Virus record (IMG/VR): IMGVR_UViG_2617270947_000015
Reading direction: 5' to 3' (one strand)
Origin: a virus
Lineage: Duplodnaviria; Heunggongvirae; Uroviricota; Caudoviricetes
DNA length: 11,129 bases
Position 1 is the stretch's first letter. The number at the start of each line of letters is the position of its first letter. Under the pieces are notes generated by a model. The model made no database searches. It was not told where the DNA came from and saw nothing but the letters and a program-made list of their open reading frames with translations. The translations under genes were made by a program, and so were the position numbers. This document shows, piece by piece, positions 1 through 11,129 of this stretch.

Positions 1-327
1 TCACTTTTTCCAGAGGCGGTCGAACTCCGCCTTCGCAAAATAAGCGGAAGCCTGGCGAAGGATATCGTTACTGCGGCGCAGTTCACGATTTTCACGTTCC
101 AGCTCTTTCAGACGCTGACGTTCAGCGGTGGTGAGCCCTCCATCACCGCCCCCGGTATCCCGCTCATGCTGGCGAACCCAGACACGCAGAGTCTCCGGCG
201 TACAGCCAATCTTTGGAGCAATGGAACAAATTGTCGCCCATTGTGAGTCATATTCGCTCTGACTTTCCAGAACCATACGGACTGCCCGTTGACGGACTTC
301 GGGGGAAAAACGAGTATTTTTAGTCAT
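1..327 (-). CDS. IS3-family transposase OrfA (108 aa, HTH protein)
   Basis: Translation [21 protein letters not shown]...[32 protein letters not shown] has the typical IS3-family OrfA HTH plus leucine-zipper layout. It lies 54 bp inside the terminal inverted repeat. Confidence 0.85.
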
Positions 328-381
328 CCTGTTTACCTCTTTCTCAGGAAGTTTAGTCTCCAGGATTCCCGGGGCGGTTCA
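1..381 (-). mobile_element. Partial IS3-family insertion sequence (IS629/IS1203/IS3411-like); one terminus at 381, remainder off the left edge
   Basis: Read on the minus strand from 381 the sequence is TGAACCGCCCCGGGAATCCTGGAGACTAAACTTCC...AGGTAAACAGG-ATG, which matches my recollection of the IS629-type terminal inverted repeat followed directly by orfA. The orfA ORF is complete; orfB would lie beyond position 1. Confidence 0.8.
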
Positions 382-716
382 GGGGCTTCGTTCGTCCTGA
401 AAAACAGAATCTGCAAAATTTTGCCGAAATTATTCCGGTTATTTCCGGCCTTACTGGCGGGAGTGAAACCAATATTGTTAACGCCAGAGCGTTGCAGATG
501 TTTGATGATAAAAAGGGAGTAAATTTAACTTACACCCCTGACGGCAATCAGAATATGAGCATTATCTCTGAGTCAGGTTTCTACAAACTAATAAAAACAA
601 AAAGCGCCCCGTTGCCGGAGCGCCTTTGTGAACAATTAACCTACTGCGCAAAAAATGAATCTGAGCAGTGGGATTATATCAACCATGTGGAGAAGCGCCA
701 CAATTGCCGAATAACG

Positions 717-5761: not shown

Positions 5762-5968
5762 ATGGCTGAAGAGAAAAAAGGCGGTGTTTCGGTGTACATA
5801 AGCCCCGAAATCGTGGAGGTGCTCAAGCAGCGCCACAAAAAAAACTATGAGGCTGGCGTGGCGGCTGGACTGGATCCGCTGATGACGCCGGAGCCGTCGA
5901 TAGGTTCACTTGTACGCTCTTATTTACTTGCGGCGCTTGGGATGCATAAAAATTATGGGGGTGAATAA
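5762..5968 (+). CDS. Hypothetical small protein (68 aa), translationally coupled to the major capsid gene
   Basis: GAGGAA Shine-Dalgarno; its stop TAA overlaps the capsid gene ATG at 5968 (TAATGG). Translation MAEEKKGGVSVYISPEIVEVLKQRHKKNYEAGVAAGLDPLMTPEPSIGSLVRSYLLAALGMHKNYGGE. Confidence 0.55.
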   Translation: MAEEKKGGVSVYISPEIVEVLKQRHKKNYEAGVAAGLDPLMTPEPSIGSLVRSYLLAALGMHKNYGGE

Positions 5969-7023
5969 TGGCAGGCAAAGCAACGGCACTTAACACTAAC
6001 CAGCTTTTCATGTACCTGAATCGCGGGGATATTGCGGATTTTAAATTCAGCCCTCTGTTTACTACGCTGTTTTTCCCGAACGTGGCGACATTCAGCACGC
6101 AAAACATCATGCTGGATACCCTGGACATTGAAGAAGTCACCATGTCGGCGTTTTGTTCGCCTATGGTGGGTAGCCAGGTTCAGCGCGATAAAGGGTACGA
6201 AACCAGCACGATTAAACCTGGCTACATGAAGCCAAAGCACGAAATCGATCCAACGAAAACCATCATGCGCATGGCTGGAGAAGATCCGGCACAGCTTAAC
6301 GACCCTACCTATCGCCGTATGCGCCTGATTACTGGCAATATGCGCCGCCAGATAAACGCCATAAAAGCGCGCGTGGAATGGCTGGCGGTAAATGCGGTAA
6401 CGACCGGAAAAAACATCATTGAGGGCGAAGGCATAGAGCGCTATGAAATCGACTGGAAGATACCGGAAAAAAACATCATAGAGCAGGCCGACGGGAAAAA
6501 ATGGTCAGAGCAGGACAAAGAAACCCACGATCCAATCTATGATATCGAACTATACGCCGATCAGGCTGGTTGCCCCGCAAACGTCATGATTATGGGCGCT
6601 GAGGTATGGCGAACGTTACGCAGCTTTAAAAAATTCCGTGAGCTGTACGATCTTTCCCGTGGTTCAGAATCCGCCGCCGAACTGGCCTGTAAAAACCTGG
6701 GCGAAGTGGTGAGCTTTAAAGGCTATCTTGGTGATCTGGCCCTTATCGTCTATTCCGGCAAATACACTGACAGCGATGGTACCGAAAAATATTTCCTTGA
6801 GCCTGATTTGCTGGTCCTGGGCAACACCAACAATAAAGGGCTGGTGGCCTATGGTGCGATAATGGATCAGGAAGCGGTAAGAACGGGCGCAACACAAAAC
6901 ATGTTTTACCCGAAAAACTGGATTGAGGACGGCGATCCGGCGATTGAGTACGTGCAGACACACAGTGCACCGCAGCCGGTACCGGCAGATATTCGCAAAT
7001 TTGTTACCGTCAAAATTGGTTAA
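5968..7023 (+). CDS. Major capsid protein, lambda gpE-like (351 aa)
   Basis: Collinear similarity to lambda gpE as I recall it: FKFSPLF..LFF, TIKPGYMKPKHEIDP, EDPAQLNDPTYRRMR, KWSEQDKETHDP, LRSFK, SFKGYLGDLALIVYSGKY, LVLGNT, YPKNWIEDGDPA, with similar length. Strong GGGGGTGA Shine-Dalgarno. Confidence 0.85.
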   Translation: MAGKATALNTNQLFMYLNRGDIADFKFSPLFTTLFFPNVATFSTQNIMLDTLDIEEVTMSAFCSPMVGSQVQRDKGYETSTIKPGYMKPKHEIDPTKTIMRMAGEDPAQLNDPTYRRMRLITGNMRRQINAIKARVEWLAVNAVTTGKNIIEGEGIERYEIDWKIPEKNIIEQADGKKWSEQDKETHDPIYDIELYADQAGCPANVMIMGAEVWRTLRSFKKFRELYDLSRGSESAAELACKNLGEVVSFKGYLGDLALIVYSGKYTDSDGTEKYFLEPDLLVLGNTNNKGLVAYGAIMDQEAVRTGATQNMFYPKNWIEDGDPAIEYVQTHSAPQPVPADIRKFVTVKIG

Positions 7024-7035
7024 CGGGGGGATTCT

Positions 7036-7371
7036 ATGGACACTCCATACATTGAGTTATTTGCAGGCAGTCAGCAGGTCGCCACGACGCTGGTACATTT
7101 TGCCGCTGATGCTGGCGTTATTCAGGAATTTACCCCGCTGATGCTGGCAGACAATGGCGAGTTTAAGCCGTGGGATGGTCAGGAATCTGGCAAGGCTGTT
7201 TATCTGACCTCGTACCCTGTGGACACGTCAAAGCAGAAATCAGCACAGTGTTACAAGACGGGGATTTTCAATATTGCCGCCGTTAACTGGCCTGAGAGCG
7301 TCGACACCGATGCGAAAAAATGCGCCGCCTTTGCGGGTTCTGGCGTATCCGTTCAGCCGCTGGCCCGATAA
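7036..7371 (+). CDS. Head decoration protein, lambda gpD-like (111 aa)
   Basis: Same length class as lambda gpD with shared motifs TPLML, WDG, YKTGIF (lambda YKSGTF), WPE, DAKK.AAFAG. GGGGGG Shine-Dalgarno. Adjacent to the gpE-like gene. Confidence 0.75.
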   Translation: MDTPYIELFAGSQQVATTLVHFAADAGVIQEFTPLMLADNGEFKPWDGQESGKAVYLTSYPVDTSKQKSAQCYKTGIFNIAAVNWPESVDTDAKKCAAFAGSGVSVQPLAR

Positions 7372-7383
7372 GCAGGGGGAACG

Positions 7384-7797
7384 ATGGCAACGAATGAAAG
7401 CGTCATGACGCTACCGCTGGCGAGTAAATTTAAAGCCGAAGCGCGGGCAATGGCTGACAGAGGTTTATCAACCTACGAGGCCGTATATCAACTCAACAAA
7501 CTGGAAGAGCAGGACAAGCCGCGCGCTGATGCGATTATGGCGCTTCATGAACATAACGACTATCAGCCGCTGTTACGTGCAATGGCAAACGTGCCATGTA
7601 TTAGCGTCGATAATGCTCGTGAAATCCTGAACATGACCATAGAGCAGGAGCGCCCAAAGGTTGCGCCGGAGCTTACCGCAGCCTTTGAAAACTTTATGGA
7701 CATGCACAGCCCGAAAGCCGTATCACCCGGCATGGCATACGACGGCAGAAACCAGGGCGATGAAGGCGACGTCGATCGCATACTGAAAACCATCTGA
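7384..7797 (+). CDS. Hypothetical protein (137 aa), last gene of the capsid operon, immediately upstream of cos
   Basis: GGGGGAACG Shine-Dalgarno. Translation MATNESVMTLPLASKFKAEARAMADRGLSTYEAVYQLNKLEEQDKPRADAIMALHEHNDYQPLLRAMANVP.... The terminator hairpin and cos site follow directly. Confidence 0.6.
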   Translation: MATNESVMTLPLASKFKAEARAMADRGLSTYEAVYQLNKLEEQDKPRADAIMALHEHNDYQPLLRAMANVPCISVDNAREILNMTIEQERPKVAPELTAAFENFMDMHSPKAVSPGMAYDGRNQGDEGDVDRILKTI

Positions 7798-7803
7798 CAT
7801 AAG

Positions 7804-7826
7804 GCCGGAGAAATCCGGCTTTTTTT
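7804..7826 (+). terminator. Rho-independent terminator fused to the upstream edge of the cos site
   Basis: Stem GCCGGA (7804-7809) / TCCGGC (7814-7819), loop GAAA, then TTTTTTT (7820-7826). Confidence 0.7.
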
Positions 7827-7900
7827 ACGGGTCCTTTCCGGCATATGGACCCGTTACGGGGCGGCGACCTCGCGGGTTTTCGCTATTTATGACGTTTTTC
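7827..7900 (+). other. Lambda-type cos site (cosQ-cosN plus start of cosB), intact copy A
   Basis: ACGGGTCCTTTCCGG...GTTACG-GGGCGGCGACCTCGCGGGTTTTCGCTATTTATGA. The 12-nt lambda cohesive-end sequence GGGCGGCGACCT is exact at 7859-7870, and the flanks match the lambda right-end/left-end junction as I recall it. A Nu1-like gene follows, as in lambda. Confidence 0.85.
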
Positions 7901-7959
7901 CGTGAAGGTGACACCACCACCACTTGATTAATATTTAACCATGCGGTTAAGGTAACATT

Positions 7960-8400
7960 ATGATTGATAAAGCTTGTTTTGTAAGTCAGCAGGAAATAGC
8001 TGAACATTTCAAGGTTAACAGAACCACTATTCGCGCATGGACCAAACAGGGGATGCCGTATCTTAATGCGGATCGCGGAAAGTCTGGCGGTTATCACATC
8101 GGGCATACATTGCTTTGGTCTTCAGGTAAAAGCCGTCTTGAGGCCATCAGATATCACGTAGAAACCAGTGCGCTGGAAAAAATTATGTTTGCCAGGCTGC
8201 TTTCATCTGAGCGTGACGAGTACTCCAGTGAAGAAACAGAACATCGATTTGATGAAGGTTTGCAGATTTACGGCTATTCACCGGAAGATGTGAGCAAGGC
8301 ACGAAATAAAATGGCTGGCTTTCTGGCTGGGTGGCGTCATGCCGTAAGCGTTCGCCGTGCCAGCATGGAACAATCAGTCGTTACAGAACAGCAAAGTTAA
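7960..8400 (+). CDS. Small-terminase-like DNA-binding protein (lambda Nu1-like winged HTH N-terminus, 146 aa); candidate cos-recognition / packaging-redirection factor
   Basis: N-terminus VSQQEIAEHFKVNRTTIRAWTKQGMPYLNADRGKSGG aligns with lambda Nu1 VNKKQLADIFGASIRTIQNWQEQGMPVLRGGGKGN. It sits about 60 bp downstream of cos, in the lambda Nu1 position, but no large-terminase gene follows. Confidence 0.7.
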   Translation: MIDKACFVSQQEIAEHFKVNRTTIRAWTKQGMPYLNADRGKSGGYHIGHTLLWSSGKSRLEAIRYHVETSALEKIMFARLLSSERDEYSSEETEHRFDEGLQIYGYSPEDVSKARNKMAGFLAGWRHAVSVRRASMEQSVVTEQQS

Positions 8401-8430
8401 AAATCACTTTCTGTTACGCCATCAAATACG

Positions 8431-8580
8431 CAATACAACAACCACGTATTTTTTTAAAACTATTTGATTCAATTAGCATTTTTTTATTTTTAGCATCAAA
8501 AAAACACTATCAGGTTGTTGTATTGCTCTTTATTTTTACTTAGTTATCAAATGGATATGACAAACAATTAAACAACAACC
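8431..8580. repeat. AT-rich non-coding region with three copies of a GGTTGTTGT-type motif (candidate cosB-like protein-binding sites for the inverted cos copy)
   Basis: CAATACAACAACC at 8431-8443 and its perfect inverse GGTTGTTGTATTG at 8513-8525, 69 bp apart, plus AAACAACAACC at 8570-8580. The sequence between them is extremely AT-rich. Confidence 0.5.
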
Positions 8581-8595
8581 TCCCTCTAAAAAAGC

Positions 8596-8663
8596 TCATA
8601 AATAGCGAAAAACCGCGAGGTCGCCGCCCCGTAACGGGCCATAATTCCAGGAAGGACCCGACG
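8596..8663 (-). other. Second lambda-type cos site in inverted orientation (copy C)
   Basis: Minus-strand reading is GGGTCCTTCCTGGAATTATGGCCCGTTACG-GGGCGGCGACCTCGCGGTTTTTCGCTATTTATGA. The reverse complement of the 12-mer, AGGTCGCCGCCC, is at 8618-8629. About 65 bp are near-identical to copy A, but this copy lacks the upstream terminator hairpin. Confidence 0.8.
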
Positions 8664-8693
8664 ACACCAGACTATCAGAACGATGGGGGCACA

Positions 8694-8975
8694 ATGACAG
8701 AAGCCGAAATACTGCGATTAATCCGCCGCGTTGCCGGAATCAGCCAGCAGCATGACGAACAGGCCACGCAGCCGGACAGCGTGACCGCTGAAAATTATGT
8801 GCGTGTTGTTGCTGAGGTGATGCGCCGTGATGGTATCCAGCTTAATGATGTTGATATGCGCGACATACGGATCCGCGTTCTGGAAATGCTGGCCTACAAT
8901 CGCCGCGTTGAACTGTATCGGGAGAAAGAAAAAATAACGTACCACTGGAAGAAGCCGGAGCGGTTGCGGCGGTAA
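8694..8975 (+). CDS. Hypothetical protein (93 aa)
   Basis: GGGGG Shine-Dalgarno 5 nt upstream of the ATG. Translation MTEAEILRLIRRVAGISQQHDEQATQPDSVTAENYVRVVAEVMRRDGIQLNDVDMRDIRIRVLEMLAYNRR.... Confidence 0.55.
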   Translation: MTEAEILRLIRRVAGISQQHDEQATQPDSVTAENYVRVVAEVMRRDGIQLNDVDMRDIRIRVLEMLAYNRRVELYREKEKITYHWKKPERLRR

Positions 8976-9587
8976 CTGGTTGATATTTTCGAAATTCGCC
9001 AGCGGCGAACATCGGGGAAACCAGCCTAACCCGTTGATATTTTCGGAAACCTCAATTTGAGGAAGTCGGCGCGGTAACTCGCTGAACTTAAAGCAAAGCG
9101 CAAAATTGCGCTTGCTGAATAATCATTATGATTACGCAGATGATTAAGGAATGACCGAAGGCGGAAATTCGCCTGTGGTTAATGGGGGAGTTGCAGATCT
9201 GCAACTCGACCATGAAACTACGGAAACTACCCGTAGTTTGGGTAGTAAGAGTAACACCCAGATTTTGGGGCTTACTCGTGATACCCAAATTTGGGGTATC
9301 GGTGGCAACCATAACGACTTTCGTTACGGTTGATGCTTTTACCCCATTGGGGGAAAGGTATTACGATAATCATAACACCTACCGAACAGGTAAAGCCCAC
9401 CAGCCTGATTAACGTTTAACCGGAAAAAAATTCCGGTAGGTGGGGATCCCCATATAGACATTAACGCCCCTCATGAATTGGTGCGCTTCCCCCTGGAAAG
9501 ATGATCCGCCTGTATATTTCTTGTGTCTATTTGTTCCACGTTGTTTCATACGGTGCACCGAACGGTGTAGTTAATGGTGTAGTCAAT
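8966..9587. repeat. Repeat- and palindrome-dense non-coding region between the last island ORF and phoQ (candidate att arm / regulatory region)
   Basis: Direct repeats GTTGATATTTTCG(A/G)AA at 8979-8994 and 9033-9049; GCGGTAACT at 8968-8976 and 9071-9079. Palindromes AAGCGCAA-aa-TTGCGCTT (9096-9113), GTTGCAGATCTGCAAC (9190-9205), AAACTAC-cc-GTAGTTT (9224-9239), CCGGAA-aaaaa-TTCCGG (~9420-9437), CGGTGCACCG (9551-9560). Tandem GGTGTAGTTAAT / GGTGTAGTCAAT (9564-9587). Confidence 0.5.
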
Positions 9588-9668: not shown

Positions 9669-11129
9669 TTATTCATCTTTCGGCGCAGAATGCTGGCGAC
9701 CAAAAATCACCTCCATCCGCGCACCGCCCAGCATGCTCTCTCCGGCGACGATTTTACCCTCATATTGCTCGGTGATTTCGCGGGCTACCGCCAGCCCTAC
9801 ACCTTGCCCAGGGCGTAAAGTATCAACCCGTTGACCACGGTCGAAAATGACCTCTCGCTTGCTTAATGGAATACCGGGGCCATCATCCTCGACCACAATA
9901 TAGAGATGCTCGTCGGTTTGCCTTGCAGAAATTTCGACAAACTCGAGGCAATATTTACAGGCATTATCCAGCACGTTGCCCATCACCTCGACAAAATCGT
10001 TCTGCTCACCGACAAAGCTGATCTCTGGCGAAATATCGAGAGAGATATTGACCCCTTTGCGTTGATACACTTTGTTCAGCGCTGAGGTGAGATTGTCCAG
10101 CAGTGGGGCGACCGGATGCAGCTCGCGGCTGAGCAATGTCCCGCCGCGCATACTGGCACGATGCAGGTAGTAGCCAATTTGCTGTGAAATGCGGCTGATT
10201 TGCTCCAGCATTACCGGCTCAGCATCACTGACGCTCATCTTTTCACTACGCAGAGAACGCAGCGTACTTTGCAGCACCGCCAGTGGCGTTTTCAGACTAT
10301 GGGTCAGGTCGGTGAGCGTCGTACGGTATTTGTCGTAACGTTCGCGTTCACTTTTTAACAATCGGTTCAGGTTTCGTACCAGACTGGTCAGTTCTCGCGT
10401 TGTGGCTGGATTGAGCAATTCGCGGTTATGTTCTTCCAGTTCGCGGACTTCTTTTGCCAGGGCTTCGATGGGGCGTAAACTCCACCAGGCGGCGACCCAC
10501 AGCAGCGGGATCACTAACAGCAGATTGGCTGAGAGCACATAGATAAACCAGCTCCAGACCATATAGGAACTTTTTAGCTCCACCGGAATGGTATCCACCA
10601 CCACAATGGTTAATTTTGGCATCCGCGATGTTGCCGGGTAGACGTTTACTGCCACCGAGTGGGTCATCTCCGCGTCGTCATCATCTTCCCGCACTTCCTG
10701 CAACTGTTGCTGTATCGAATGATCTCCACTCAGCAAGAGGCTGGTATCGTTAACATCCGCTTCAATTTCATGAAAACCATTCGATTTCAGCCAGTCAGGC
10801 TGGATCATCTTCATCAGCCAGGGCACGTCACGTTGCGCCCATAAAAGCTGCCCGTTCTCATCATAAATTAGCGTCATGGTGGGGCTTTGCTTGTCGATAT
10901 TTTCGGGTAACTCGACATGCAACTTATTGTTTTCCCACTTCGCAAGGGTATAGAACAGATTGCTCTCGCCACGTAACAGCCGAAACGTAGTTTTATCGAA
11001 ACTGACGCTATAACCGATCAGCGCGACCATTCCGTAGGCAAGCGAAAGCACCAGTACTACCGCTGCCGTTGCCAACAGAAAACGTACCCGCAGCGAGAGC
11101 GGGAAAAAAAGACGCAGTAATTTTTTCAT
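9669..11129 (-). CDS. phoQ: Sensor histidine kinase PhoQ of the PhoP/PhoQ two-component system, complete, 486 aa
   Basis: Translation [83 protein letters not shown]...HSAPKDE matches E. coli PhoQ: two transmembrane segments, periplasmic sensor domain, HAMP, DHp histidine box ([12 protein letters not shown]) and HATPase domain. The start codon is the last three bases of the window. Confidence 0.97.

What the first reader, a model, noticed from the sequence alone, without database searches (positions are those of the whole stretch)
7804..7900. Intact lambda-type cos site with the exact 12-nt cohesive-end sequence, fused to a terminator hairpin
GGGCGGCGACCT (7859-7870) and its flanks reproduce the lambda cosQ-cosN junction, but the cosB side is far shorter than in lambda: the Nu1-like gene starts about 60 bp after it. 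A terminator hairpin abuts the cosQ side, so the capsid operon does not read through cos. This looks like a satellite cos built to be cut by helper terminase while carrying its own recognition flank.
Basis: partly seen in the sequence, partly recalled or inferred. Interest (0 to 1): 0.75.

Follow-up and report, generated by a model that had tools for sequence, protein, structure and literature searches.

The report
Known satellite-island packaging site (cos1)
This is a real lambda-type DNA packaging (cos) site, nearly identical to the already characterised cos1 site of the E. coli satellite island EcCICFT073, which uses its own protein (RppA) to redirect a helper phage's packaging enzyme onto the island's DNA.

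Summary
GGGCGGCGACCT sits at 7859-7870 with lambda-like cosQ and right flank, and an intrinsic-terminator hairpin (7801-7826) lies 2 nt before cosQ.

It is not new. The stretch differs at 2 positions in about 230 nt from the published, tested cos1 of the island EcCICFT073. The "Nu1-like" gene (7960-8400) is RppA, not a small terminase. Published work shows that the RppA-TerS complex recognises the cos1 flank and blocks phage cos use. Murialdo and Feiss (2022) proposed the short N15-like flank with one "R3-PICI" element. My 11-locus comparison supports that proposal: the cut site varies, while CACCACCACCAC[T/A]TGATTAA stays fixed at bp 54-73.

Three further results are not in the literature I could search:
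- Its inner flank is a complete phage-type cosB with three GGTTGTTGT repeats, 77-79% identical to the region just upstream of terS in lambdoid prophages.
- CFT073 carries a different phage's cosB at the same place.
- The rppA segment between the two cos sites is inverted in 15 of 84 E. coli islands.

Verdict: a real feature, already known, interpretation supported. Interest is low for the finding itself and moderate for the cos2 and inversion side results.

The parts
7801..7826 (+). Intrinsic-terminator-like hairpin (stem 7801-7809/7814-7822, GAAA loop, T run 7820-7826). It closes the capsid-like gene module 3 nt after the stop of ORF 7384-7797.
   Evidence: The fold gives -17.4 kcal/mol, z = -3.0. 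The hairpin is identical in CFT073 and GmF052. A hairpin plus T run sits directly 5' of cosQ in 8 of 10 Rpp islands, with three different stem sequences. Lambdoid phages have a GATAATCATTATC element at this place instead.
7824..7841 (+). cosQ block TTTACGGGTCCTTTCCGG (core GGGTCCT at 7829-7835). In lambda this element is needed to terminate packaging.
   Evidence: It matches lambda at 18/18. The core GGGTCCTT lies 30 nt before cosN in the 10 Rpp loci whose cosQ is within the fetched DNA.
7859..7870 (+). cosN, the 12-nt cohesive-end sequence GGGCGGCGACCT. By analogy with lambda, the nicks are predicted at 7858/7859 (top strand) and 7870/7871 (bottom strand).
   Evidence: Exact match. It is identical to lambda, phi80 and EcCICFT073 cos1.
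7871..7903 (+). cosN-proximal right flank (bp 13-45, CGCGGGTTTTCGCTATTTATGA...), shared with lambdoid phages.
   Evidence: It matches lambda at 29/33. Phage matches to the window stop at about 7910.
7906..7931 (+). Candidate Rpp-TerS recognition element. It covers R3-PICI as proposed by Murialdo and Feiss (bp 48-65 = 7906-7923) and the conserved block CACCACCACCACTTGATTAA (7912-7931, bp 54-73).
   Evidence: There is a single copy in the window. The block is invariant apart from one T/A position in 10 of 11 Rpp loci (the Klebsiella locus has a 2-nt insertion). Its distance from cosQ is fixed at 82-83 nt, while cosN varies among 8 sequence types. The proposal is in PMC9026076. Binding has not been shown biochemically.
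7900..8040 (+). Equivalent of the cosB(cos1) fragment that made a phi80 chimera RppA-dependent in the published experiment.
   Evidence: The primer sequences phi80quimera-cosB-3m and -4c in the supplement of PMC6739421 map to window 7900-7921 and 8019-8040 (read).
7960..8400 (+). rppA (146 aa), the redirecting-phage-packaging protein. Its N-terminal winged helix-turn-helix mimics the TerS DNA-binding domain.
   Evidence: PDB 6HLK/6HN7 RppC, E = 5.7e-31, and lambda TerS only E = 0.08. It is 98.6% identical to CFT073 RppA. Its N-terminus is identical to RppA in Fig. S1 of PMC6739421.
8401..8617 (-). cosB of the second cos site (cos2), a complete phage-type cosB. The R3-like (8572-8580), R2-like (8513-8521, opposite orientation) and R1-like (8435-8443) copies of GGTTGTTGT flank an AT-rich stretch of 27.5% GC.
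   Evidence: There are three exact copies against 0.12 expected. The region is 77-79% identical over about 190 nt to the region ending about 10 nt before terS in lambdoid prophages, with the three repeats conserved. It is unrelated to the CFT073 sequence at the same place.
8618..8660 (-). cos2: cosN (8618-8629) and the cosQ core (8653-8659) on the minus strand. This is the right arm of the 72-nt inverted repeat 7828-7899 / 8589-8660.
   Evidence: 86% complementary arms. It corresponds to the published EcCICFT073 cos2.

Best explanation
Window 7801-7959 together with rppA (7960-8400) is the Rpp-dependent packaging site, cos1, of an EcCICFT073-family phage-inducible chromosomal island inserted next to phoQ.

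Proposed mechanism:
1. After a lambda-like helper phage is induced, the island makes RppA.
2. RppA heterodimerises with the helper's small terminase (TerS). This stops TerS from binding the phage's own cosB.
3. The resulting hybrid DNA-binding module recognises the island's flank instead. The most likely target is the single R3-position element CACCACCACCACTTGATTAA at bp 54-73 (7912-7931).
4. TerS brings the helper's large terminase (TerL) to the lambda-identical cosN (7859-7870). TerL makes nicks 12 nt apart, and the DNA is packaged rightwards into helper-made heads.
5. cosQ (7829-7835) serves termination at the next cos1 copy in the concatemer.
6. The hairpin plus T run immediately upstream ends transcription of the capsid-like gene module before cos.

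What is shown and what is inferred:
- Shown here: the sequence anatomy, the identity with published cos1 and RppA, and the conservation pattern.
- Shown in the literature for the near-identical CFT073 element: cos1 function, its requirement for transfer, its dependence on RppA and TerS, and phage interference.
- Inferred: the exact Rpp-TerS binding element, the nick positions, terminator activity, and whether this particular copy is still mobile.
For: - **Sequence.** cosN is exact, and cosQ and bp 13-45 are lambda-like.
- **Identity with the published site.** From the terminator to the end of rppA the window differs from CFT073 at only 2 positions upstream of rppA (7828 and 7945). It matches the cos1 sequence printed in Fig. 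S1A of PMC6739421.
- **RppA.** Identified.
- **Published experiments.** The cloned cos1 makes a plasmid transducible by lambda and phi80. Deleting cos1 strongly reduces island transfer, and deleting both cos sites abolishes it. RppA raises cos1 transfer and lowers phage-cos transfer. Swapping cosB between cos1 and cos2 moves the RppA dependence. A phi80 chimera carrying cosB(cos1) becomes RppA-dependent.
- **Comparative data.** In 11 Rpp loci from E. coli, Klebsiella, Phytobacter and Salmonella-type islands, cosN varies among 8 types. The CACCACCACCAC[T/A]TGATTAA block keeps a fixed 82-83 nt distance from cosQ and always precedes an rpp gene. This matches the R3-PICI proposal of PMC9026076.
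- **Context.** The gene order and the phoQ-adjacent position are the same as in EcCICFT073.
Against: - Nothing was tested on this exact copy.
- The island's left part is cut by an IS3-family element (window 1-382). No integrase or alpA lies in the window, so this copy may not excise.
- Direct binding of Rpp-TerS to the CACCACCAC element has never been shown. The only functional cosB fragment, 7900-8040, is larger and overlaps rppA.
- cos1 plasmids are transferred at low frequency without RppA, so some Rpp-independent use exists.
- The terminator is a prediction only.
Confidence: 0.9

Rival explanations
1. cos1 is used directly by a helper small terminase without Rpp. On this reading it is simply an N15-like, single-R phage cos that the island copied, and RppA acts only as an anti-phage interference protein.
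For: cos1 plasmids are transferred by lambda and phi80 at reduced frequency in the absence of RppA. The layout, with a single R element and the gene starting at bp 102, resembles N15, where gene 1 starts at bp 89.
Against: RppA increases cos1 transfer. The RppA dependence follows the cosB(cos1) fragment in the swap and chimera experiments. The flank shows no similarity to lambda or phi80 R sites. Among phage records, matches stop at about bp 50. The CACCACCAC block is found next to rpp genes and not next to terS.
Confidence: 0.05
2. The site is an inert relic: the leftover cos of a decayed lambdoid prophage, or of an island copy that is no longer mobile. Its intactness would then reflect recent descent and not current function.
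For: An IS3-family element truncates the left part of the island in this window. No integrase or alpA is present in the window. There are no experimental data for this strain.
Against: All elements (terminator, cosQ, cosN, R3-PICI and an intact rppA ORF) are preserved at 99% or more relative to the functional CFT073 copy. The same module is conserved across genera with the invariant R3-PICI block. The surrounding genes are those of the PICI and not of a prophage. Even an island that cannot excise can be packaged from cos in situ.
Confidence: 0.04
3. The 12-mer and its flanks are a chance resemblance with no packaging role.
For: None beyond the general possibility.
Against: 0.03 matches are expected and 2 were found. 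About 80 nt of flanking similarity to phage cos sites scores E = 1e-15 to 4e-25. The stretch is near-identical to an experimentally validated site.
Confidence: 0.01

Closest known systems
EcCICFT073 cos1 with RppA (c1503) (Fillol-Salom et al. 2018 ISME J, PMC6092414; 2019 Mol Cell, PMC6739421)
   Same: Same chromosomal position next to phoQ and same gene order. The sequence from the terminator to rppA differs at 2 positions (7828 C versus T, 7945 G versus A). RppA is 98.6% identical. The rpp start is at bp 102.
   Different: The window's RppA has a slightly different C-terminal end (146 versus 144 aa). The flank of the second cos site is a different cassette. The left part of the island is interrupted by an IS element.
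Bacteriophage lambda cos (cosQ-cosN-cosB, with Nu1 at bp 191)
   Same: cosN is 12/12, the cosQ block is 18/18, bp 13-45 are 29/33, and the cosQ-to-cosN spacing is the same.
   Different: There are no R3-I1-R2-R1 TerS sites, and identity falls to 24-30% beyond bp 45. The downstream gene is rppA and not Nu1, and it starts 89 bp closer. A terminator hairpin replaces the GATAATCATTATC element upstream of cosQ.
Phage N15 cos (single R3, gene 1 at bp 89), as discussed by Murialdo and Feiss 2022 (PMC9026076)
   Same: The architecture is the same: one R-type element at the R3 position, no I1, R2 or R1, and a short distance to the downstream gene.
   Different: The recognition sequence and the protein differ: here it is an Rpp-TerS hybrid and not TerS alone. 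The N15 sequence was not aligned here.
R3-PICI proposal (Murialdo and Feiss 2022)
   Same: The conserved block I derived independently (7912-7931) contains their bp 55-63 core and lies within or adjacent to their bp 48-65 site.
   Different: My comparison adds Salmonella-type, Phytobacter and Klebsiella loci. It shows that conservation extends to bp 73 and that cosN varies while the block does not.
cos-type staphylococcal islands (SaPIbov5, SaPIbov4) and the satellite P4, which carry a helper-type cos
   Same: A satellite carries the helper's cos cut site so that helper terminase packages it. SaPIbov4 is also reported to have two putative cos sites.
   Different: As far as is known (my own knowledge for P4), those elements copy the helper's recognition. 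They do not pair a private recognition flank with a TerS-retargeting protein. No sequence relationship was tested.

Membership tests
Lambda-type phage cos site | 12-nt cohesive-end sequence (cosN) GGGCGGCGACCT | tested here: met
   Exact match at 7859-7870.
Lambda-type phage cos site | cosQ element about 30 nt upstream of cosN | tested here: met
   TTTACGGGTCCTTTCCGG matches lambda at 18/18, and the core lies 30 nt before cosN.
Lambda-type phage cos site | cosB with TerS-binding repeats R3-I1-R2-R1 on the right of cosN | tested here: not met
   Identity to lambda is 13/55 for bp 46-100 and 30/100 for bp 101-200. There is one copy of the island-specific element and no repeats. The second site (cos2) does meet this feature, with its own repeat type.
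Lambda-type phage cos site | Small-terminase gene (Nu1/terS) immediately downstream | tested here: not met
   The downstream ORF is RppA (6HLK, E = 5.7e-31). Lambda TerS matches only at E = 0.08 over the winged helix-turn-helix. There is no alignment to a prophage TerS.
Rpp-dependent PICI cos (EcCICFT073 cos1 type) | Sequence identity with the experimentally defined cos1 | tested here: met
   2 differences between the terminator and the rppA start relative to CFT073. It matches Fig. S1A of PMC6739421.
Rpp-dependent PICI cos (EcCICFT073 cos1 type) | rpp gene directly downstream, starting near bp 102 | tested here: met
   The ATG at 7960 is bp 102.
Rpp-dependent PICI cos (EcCICFT073 cos1 type) | R3-PICI element at bp 48-65 with a conserved bp 55-63 core | tested here: met
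   CACCACCACCACTTGA lies at 7912-7927. It is conserved at fixed spacing in 11 loci.
Rpp-dependent PICI cos (EcCICFT073 cos1 type) | Lies within a PICI (integrase, alpA, primase/replication module, helper dependence) | tested here: inconclusive
   The primase (D5_N/DUF5906), SSB, Icd-like and capsid-like genes and the phoQ-adjacent position match EcCICFT073. Integrase and alpA are not in the window, because an IS3-family element ends at 382.
Rpp-dependent PICI cos (EcCICFT073 cos1 type) | Helper TerS- and RppA-dependent packaging, with ends formed at cosN | not testable with these tools
   Shown only for the CFT073 copy in the literature.
N15-type cos (single-R cosB) | Single R element at the R3 position, with no I1, R2 or R1 | tested here: met
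   One copy of the conserved block and no further copies with up to 3 mismatches. This holds at the level of architecture only.
N15-type cos (single-R cosB) | R3 sequence recognised by N15 or lambda TerS | not tested
   The N15 sequence was not fetched. Published RppA dependence argues that the recognition differs.
Intrinsic (Rho-independent) terminator | G+C-rich stem-loop followed directly by a T run | tested here: met
   7801-7826, -17.4 kcal/mol, z = -3.0, 7 T. Analogous hairpins occur in 8 of 10 islands.
Intrinsic (Rho-independent) terminator | Stops transcription in vivo | not testable with these tools
   No transcript data are available.

The most novel reading that the evidence does not exclude
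The finding is one half of an invertible, dual-specificity packaging cassette.

- **cos1** is private to the island and depends on Rpp.
- **cos2** faces cos1 and is a complete cos captured from a particular class of lambdoid phage, with that phage's own R3-I1-R2-R1 flank.

If so, the island can be packaged in two ways: by hijacking TerS through RppA, or directly by phages whose TerS DNA-binding domain matches cosB2. Exchanging the cosB2 cassette (window type, CFT073/PhiR12 type and RppB-island type were all seen) would retarget the island to locally available helpers. The 72-nt inverted cos repeats would allow the rppA segment to flip and to recombine between islands.

The sequence-level parts are shown here: the homology to phage cosB next to terS, the cassette differences, and the inversion in 15 of 84 islands. 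The functional part, Rpp-independent packaging by cognate phages, is untested. [quoted passage not shown]
Probability: 0.4. Interest if true: 0.55.

Novelty: already known. Interest (0 to 1): 0.2.

Why it matters
The reported feature itself adds nothing new. It is another copy of the well-studied EcCICFT073 cos1/RppA system, the textbook case of a satellite retargeting its helper's terminase. It is useful as a positive control showing that a sequence-only reading can recover this logic.

The side results matter more:
- They give comparative support for the proposed Rpp recognition element. It stays invariant while the cut site varies.
- They give a concrete, testable answer to why these islands carry a second cos. 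It is a swappable copy of a specific helper-phage cos, held in an invertible arrangement.

This bears on helper range and on how virulence-carrying islands spread.

Tried and rejected
- **Search for Rpp relatives in genome contigs** (search for related loci with an Rpp alignment): 154 pattern matches but none confirmed. I used the look-up of encoding contigs on individual homologues instead.
- **Exact 16-mer CACCACCACCACTTGA in viral contigs:** Only 7 of the 120 stretches carried an rpp gene. The 16-mer alone is therefore not diagnostic; its position after cosQ and cosN is.
- **Consensus terminator scan:** it missed the hairpin, so I folded the stretch directly.
no similarity.
- **Window cosB2 against the phage collection:** no match. 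The matches were found in prophages of complete E. coli genomes.
- **Rfam:** no RNA family anywhere in the window.
- **Cut-and-flip inversion.** I considered that cutting at both cosN sites alone could invert the segment, since both inner ends would carry the same overhang. In strain WP4-S17-ESBL-08 the cosQ-to-cosN spacer on the left is of the cos2 type. That points to recombination or gene conversion within the repeat. The mechanism is unresolved.

Full report
**Observation**

The 12-mer GGGCGGCGACCT is present at 7859-7870 on the plus strand. With one mismatch allowed, 0.03 matches are expected in the window and two were found. The second is on the minus strand at 8618-8629.

Anchored on cosN, the site compares with lambda (DE3 prophage copy) as follows:
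- 28/40 identical in the 40 nt upstream, including the cosQ block TTTACGGGTCCTTTCCGG at 18/18.
- 12/12 in cosN.
- 29/33 in bp 13-45.
- Then background identity: 13/55 for bp 46-100 and 30/100 for bp 101-200.

phi80 gives the same picture. HK97 shows no similarity. The cosQ-to-cosN spacer is identical to that of the temperate phage PhiR5_1. Among 50,697 phage records, matches to window 7780-8700 cover only about 7822-7910.

The hairpin AAGGCCGGA-GAAA-TCCGGCTTT plus seven T (7801-7826) folds at -17.4 kcal/mol, z = -3.0. It ends 2 nt before the cosQ core. The simple scanner missed it.

**Identity**

The window is an island of the EcCICFT073 family inserted next to phoQ (9669-11129, minus strand). 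It has the same gene order as in CFT073: DUF4222 protein, D5-type primase, SSB, a 68-aa protein, a lambda gpE-like capsid protein, a gpD-like decoration protein, a 137-aa protein, then cos, a 146-aa protein, an inverted cos and a 93-aa protein.

From the terminator to the start of the 146-aa gene, the window differs from CFT073 at two positions, 7828 and 7945. It matches the "EcCICFT073 cos1" sequence printed in Fig. S1A of PMC6739421.

The 146-aa protein is RppA. It matches PDB 6HLK/6HN7 (RppC) at E = 5.7e-31, whereas lambda TerS matches only at E = 0.08 over the winged helix-turn-helix. It is 98.6% identical to CFT073 RppA, and its N-terminus equals the published RppA.

**What is already published for the near-identical element**

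- Both island cos sites, cloned in pET28a, allow transduction by lambda and phi80, at lower frequency than the phage cos sites.
- Deleting cos1 strongly lowers island transfer. Deleting cos2 raises it. Deleting both abolishes it.
- RppA binds helper TerS. It lowers transfer of phage-cos plasmids and raises transfer of cos1 plasmids.
- Swapping the cosB parts of cos1 and cos2 moves the RppA dependence with cosB(cos1).
- A phi80 chimera carrying cosB(cos1) needs RppA. The fragment used in that chimera corresponds to window 7900-8040 (primers), so it includes 80 bp of rppA.
- Murialdo and Feiss (PMC9026076) proposed that PICI cosB is N15-like. It would hold one R element, "R3-PICI", at bp 48-65, with bp 55-63 identical in four islands and rpp starting at bp 102. 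In the window these are 7906-7923, 7913-7921 and 7960.

**Comparative test done here**

I collected Rpp loci through homologues of the window protein and from viral contigs. In the 11 representative loci I aligned (E. coli RppA, RppB-like and RppC-like islands, Klebsiella, Phytobacter, Salmonella-type islands), the layout is constant:
- cosQ core GGGTCCTT.
- 30 nt further on, cosN.
- A ...TTATGA motif.
- The block CACCACCACCAC[T/A]TGATTAA, 82-83 nt after cosQ.
- An rpp gene.

cosN itself occurs in eight sequence types: GGGCGGCGACCT, GGGCGTCGACCT, GGGCGGCAGACT, GGGCGGCAGACG, GGGCGACGCGCT, GGGCGGTTGGGG, GGGCGGAGCGCT and a GTACGTGTACGC type. The block is invariant apart from a 2-nt insertion in the Klebsiella locus.

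So the cut site tracks whatever helper terminase is around, and the block tracks Rpp. That is what is expected if the block is the Rpp-TerS recognition element. There is one copy in the window. This supports the published proposal but goes no further than it.

A hairpin plus T run directly before cosQ is present in 8 of 10 islands, with three unrelated stem sequences. It is absent from the four lambdoid phage cos regions examined. This favours a real insulating terminator.

**Mechanism**

The best-supported account is the published one:
1. RppA pairs with helper TerS.
2. The hybrid DNA-binding module binds the island flank, probably at 7912-7931.
3. TerS delivers TerL to cosN, where staggered nicks give 12-nt 5' overhangs.
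4. DNA is packaged rightwards, and cosQ serves termination.

The binding element, the nick positions, terminator activity and the mobility of this copy are inferences. One caveat for this copy is that window 1-382 is the end of an IS3-family element, and no integrase or alpA lies in the window.

**The second cos site (outside the finding's coordinates)**

Arms 7828-7899 and 8589-8660 form a 72-nt inverted repeat, 86% complementary. The two cos sites face each other with their cosB sides inward, around rppA.

Window and CFT073 are nearly identical through rppA and again from cos2 outward. They are unrelated in the roughly 200 bp between the rppA stop and cos2 cosN.

*Window cosB2.* The stretch 8401-8606 carries three exact GGTTGTTGT copies (8572-8580, 8513-8521 inverted, 8435-8443; 0.12 expected). 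They follow the lambda R3/R2/R1 topology around a 27.5% GC stretch. The first copy sits at bp 50-58, where lambda R3 sits. This stretch is 77-79% identical over about 190 nt to a region that ends about 10 nt before the terS start codon in lambdoid prophages of many E. coli genomes, with the three repeats conserved.

*CFT073 cosB2.* It is 98.4% identical over 123 nt to the cosB of phage PhiR12_1 upstream of Nu1, with three CCGGACAT repeats.

*A third type.* The cosB2 of an RppB-like island is 86% identical to the region just upstream of terS in another prophage.

*Matching TerS proteins.* The two prophage TerS proteins are 73% identical over residues 25-168, nearly identical from about residue 95 on. 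Their N-terminal DNA-binding parts (about the first 50-80 residues) differ, matching their different cosB repeats.

So cos2 is a complete phage-type cos, and its cosB is exchanged as a cassette. The 2018 and 2019 papers compared the site only with lambda and phi80 and reported no phage cosB. I found no later discussion in the held library.

In the RppC-like locus L140, cos1 and cos2 even have different cosN types. Klebsiella, Phytobacter and Salmonella-type loci lack cos2.

**Inversion**

The junction predicted for an inverted rppA segment (93-aa-gene side, cosQ2, cosN, cosB1, rppA 5' end) exists as a collinear 333-bp stretch at 98.8% identity in 15 of 5,426 complete E. coli genomes. The window orientation is found in 69 genomes.

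In strain WP4-S17-ESBL-08 the 727 bp between the two cosN sites are 100% identical to CFT073 but inverted, and rppA lies opposite to the capsid genes. In strain 135 both cos positions carry phage-type cosB, and rppA is reduced to 3' remnants.

**Comparison, novelty and verdict**

The feature works like, and is a member of, the Rpp-dependent PICI cos1 class. It meets three of the five defining features of a lambda phage cos (cosN, cosQ, proximal flank). It fails two, the R3-I1-R2-R1 cosB and a downstream terS.

The corrections are that the downstream gene is RppA, that the extent of the flank is not defined, and that there is a second inverted cos.

Interest is low for the finding as given. The cos2 and inversion observations are the only parts that go beyond the literature I could reach, and they need experiments.

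Noticed in passing
window 8401-8660 (minus strand): A second cos site (cos2) lies in inverted orientation. Its inner flank is a complete phage-type cosB with three GGTTGTTGT repeats. It is 77-79% identical to the region just upstream of terS in lambdoid prophages and unrelated to the CFT073 sequence at the same place.
   Followed up: yes
window 7871-8617; L147 (strain WP4-S17-ESBL-08), L002 (CFT073): The rppA-containing segment between the two cosN sites occurs in both orientations in nature. The inverted junction is found in 15 complete E. coli genomes and the window orientation in 69. In L147 the 727-bp inner segment is 100% identical to CFT073's but flipped.
   Followed up: yes
L144 2940-3560 (E. 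coli strain 135): This island variant carries phage-type cosB at both cos positions (PhiR12 type and O111-prophage type). rppA is reduced to two 3' remnants lying tail to tail.
   Followed up: partly
L014, L125, L140, L017, L011, L018, L021 (cos1 regions): cosN differs among Rpp islands (eight types) while the R3-PICI block is invariant. In L125 both cos sites share the same single change (GGGCGTCGACCT). In L140 cos1 and cos2 have different cosN types.
   Followed up: partly
L011 2576-3429, L018 2573-3441, L013, L019: Salmonella-type islands embedded among prophage late genes carry two tandem rpp paralogues, 35-37% identical to each other. cos and the CACCACCAC block lie upstream of the first one.
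   Followed up: no
window 1-382: This is the end of an IS3-family insertion sequence, with orfA on the minus strand at 1-327 and a terminal sequence ending at 382. It interrupts the left part of the island. Relatives align only from 382 onward.
   Followed up: partly
window 5762-7797: The island encodes a lambda gpE-like major capsid protein (5968-7023), a gpD-like decoration protein (7036-7371) and a 137-aa protein weakly similar to the C-terminal, scaffold part of head maturation protease (7384-7797). The 2018 paper states that EcCICFT073 lacks capsid morphogenesis genes.
   Followed up: no
window 7908-7964: Two sigma-70-like promoter matches (GTGACA-16-AATATT at 7908-7935 and TTAACC-18-TATGAT at 7935-7964) overlap the R3-PICI block, just upstream of rppA. 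A 6-nt inverted repeat TTAACC-ATGC-GGTTAA lies at 7935-7950; its right arm is disrupted in CFT073 by the A at 7945. This may be an rppA promoter or operator.
   Followed up: no
window 8973-9216: Between the 93-aa gene and phoQ there are direct repeats TAACNGGTTGATATTTTCG (8973-8994 and 9027-9048) and a 19-nt palindrome with adjacent arms (9179-9216). These may belong to the island's end or attachment region.
   Followed up: no
L143 3205-3711 versus L146 1672-2181: The two prophage TerS proteins have nearly identical C-terminal halves (from about residue 95; 73% identity over residues 25-168) but different N-terminal DNA-binding parts. This matches their different cosB repeat types (GGTTGTTGT versus CCGGACAT).
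   Followed up: partly
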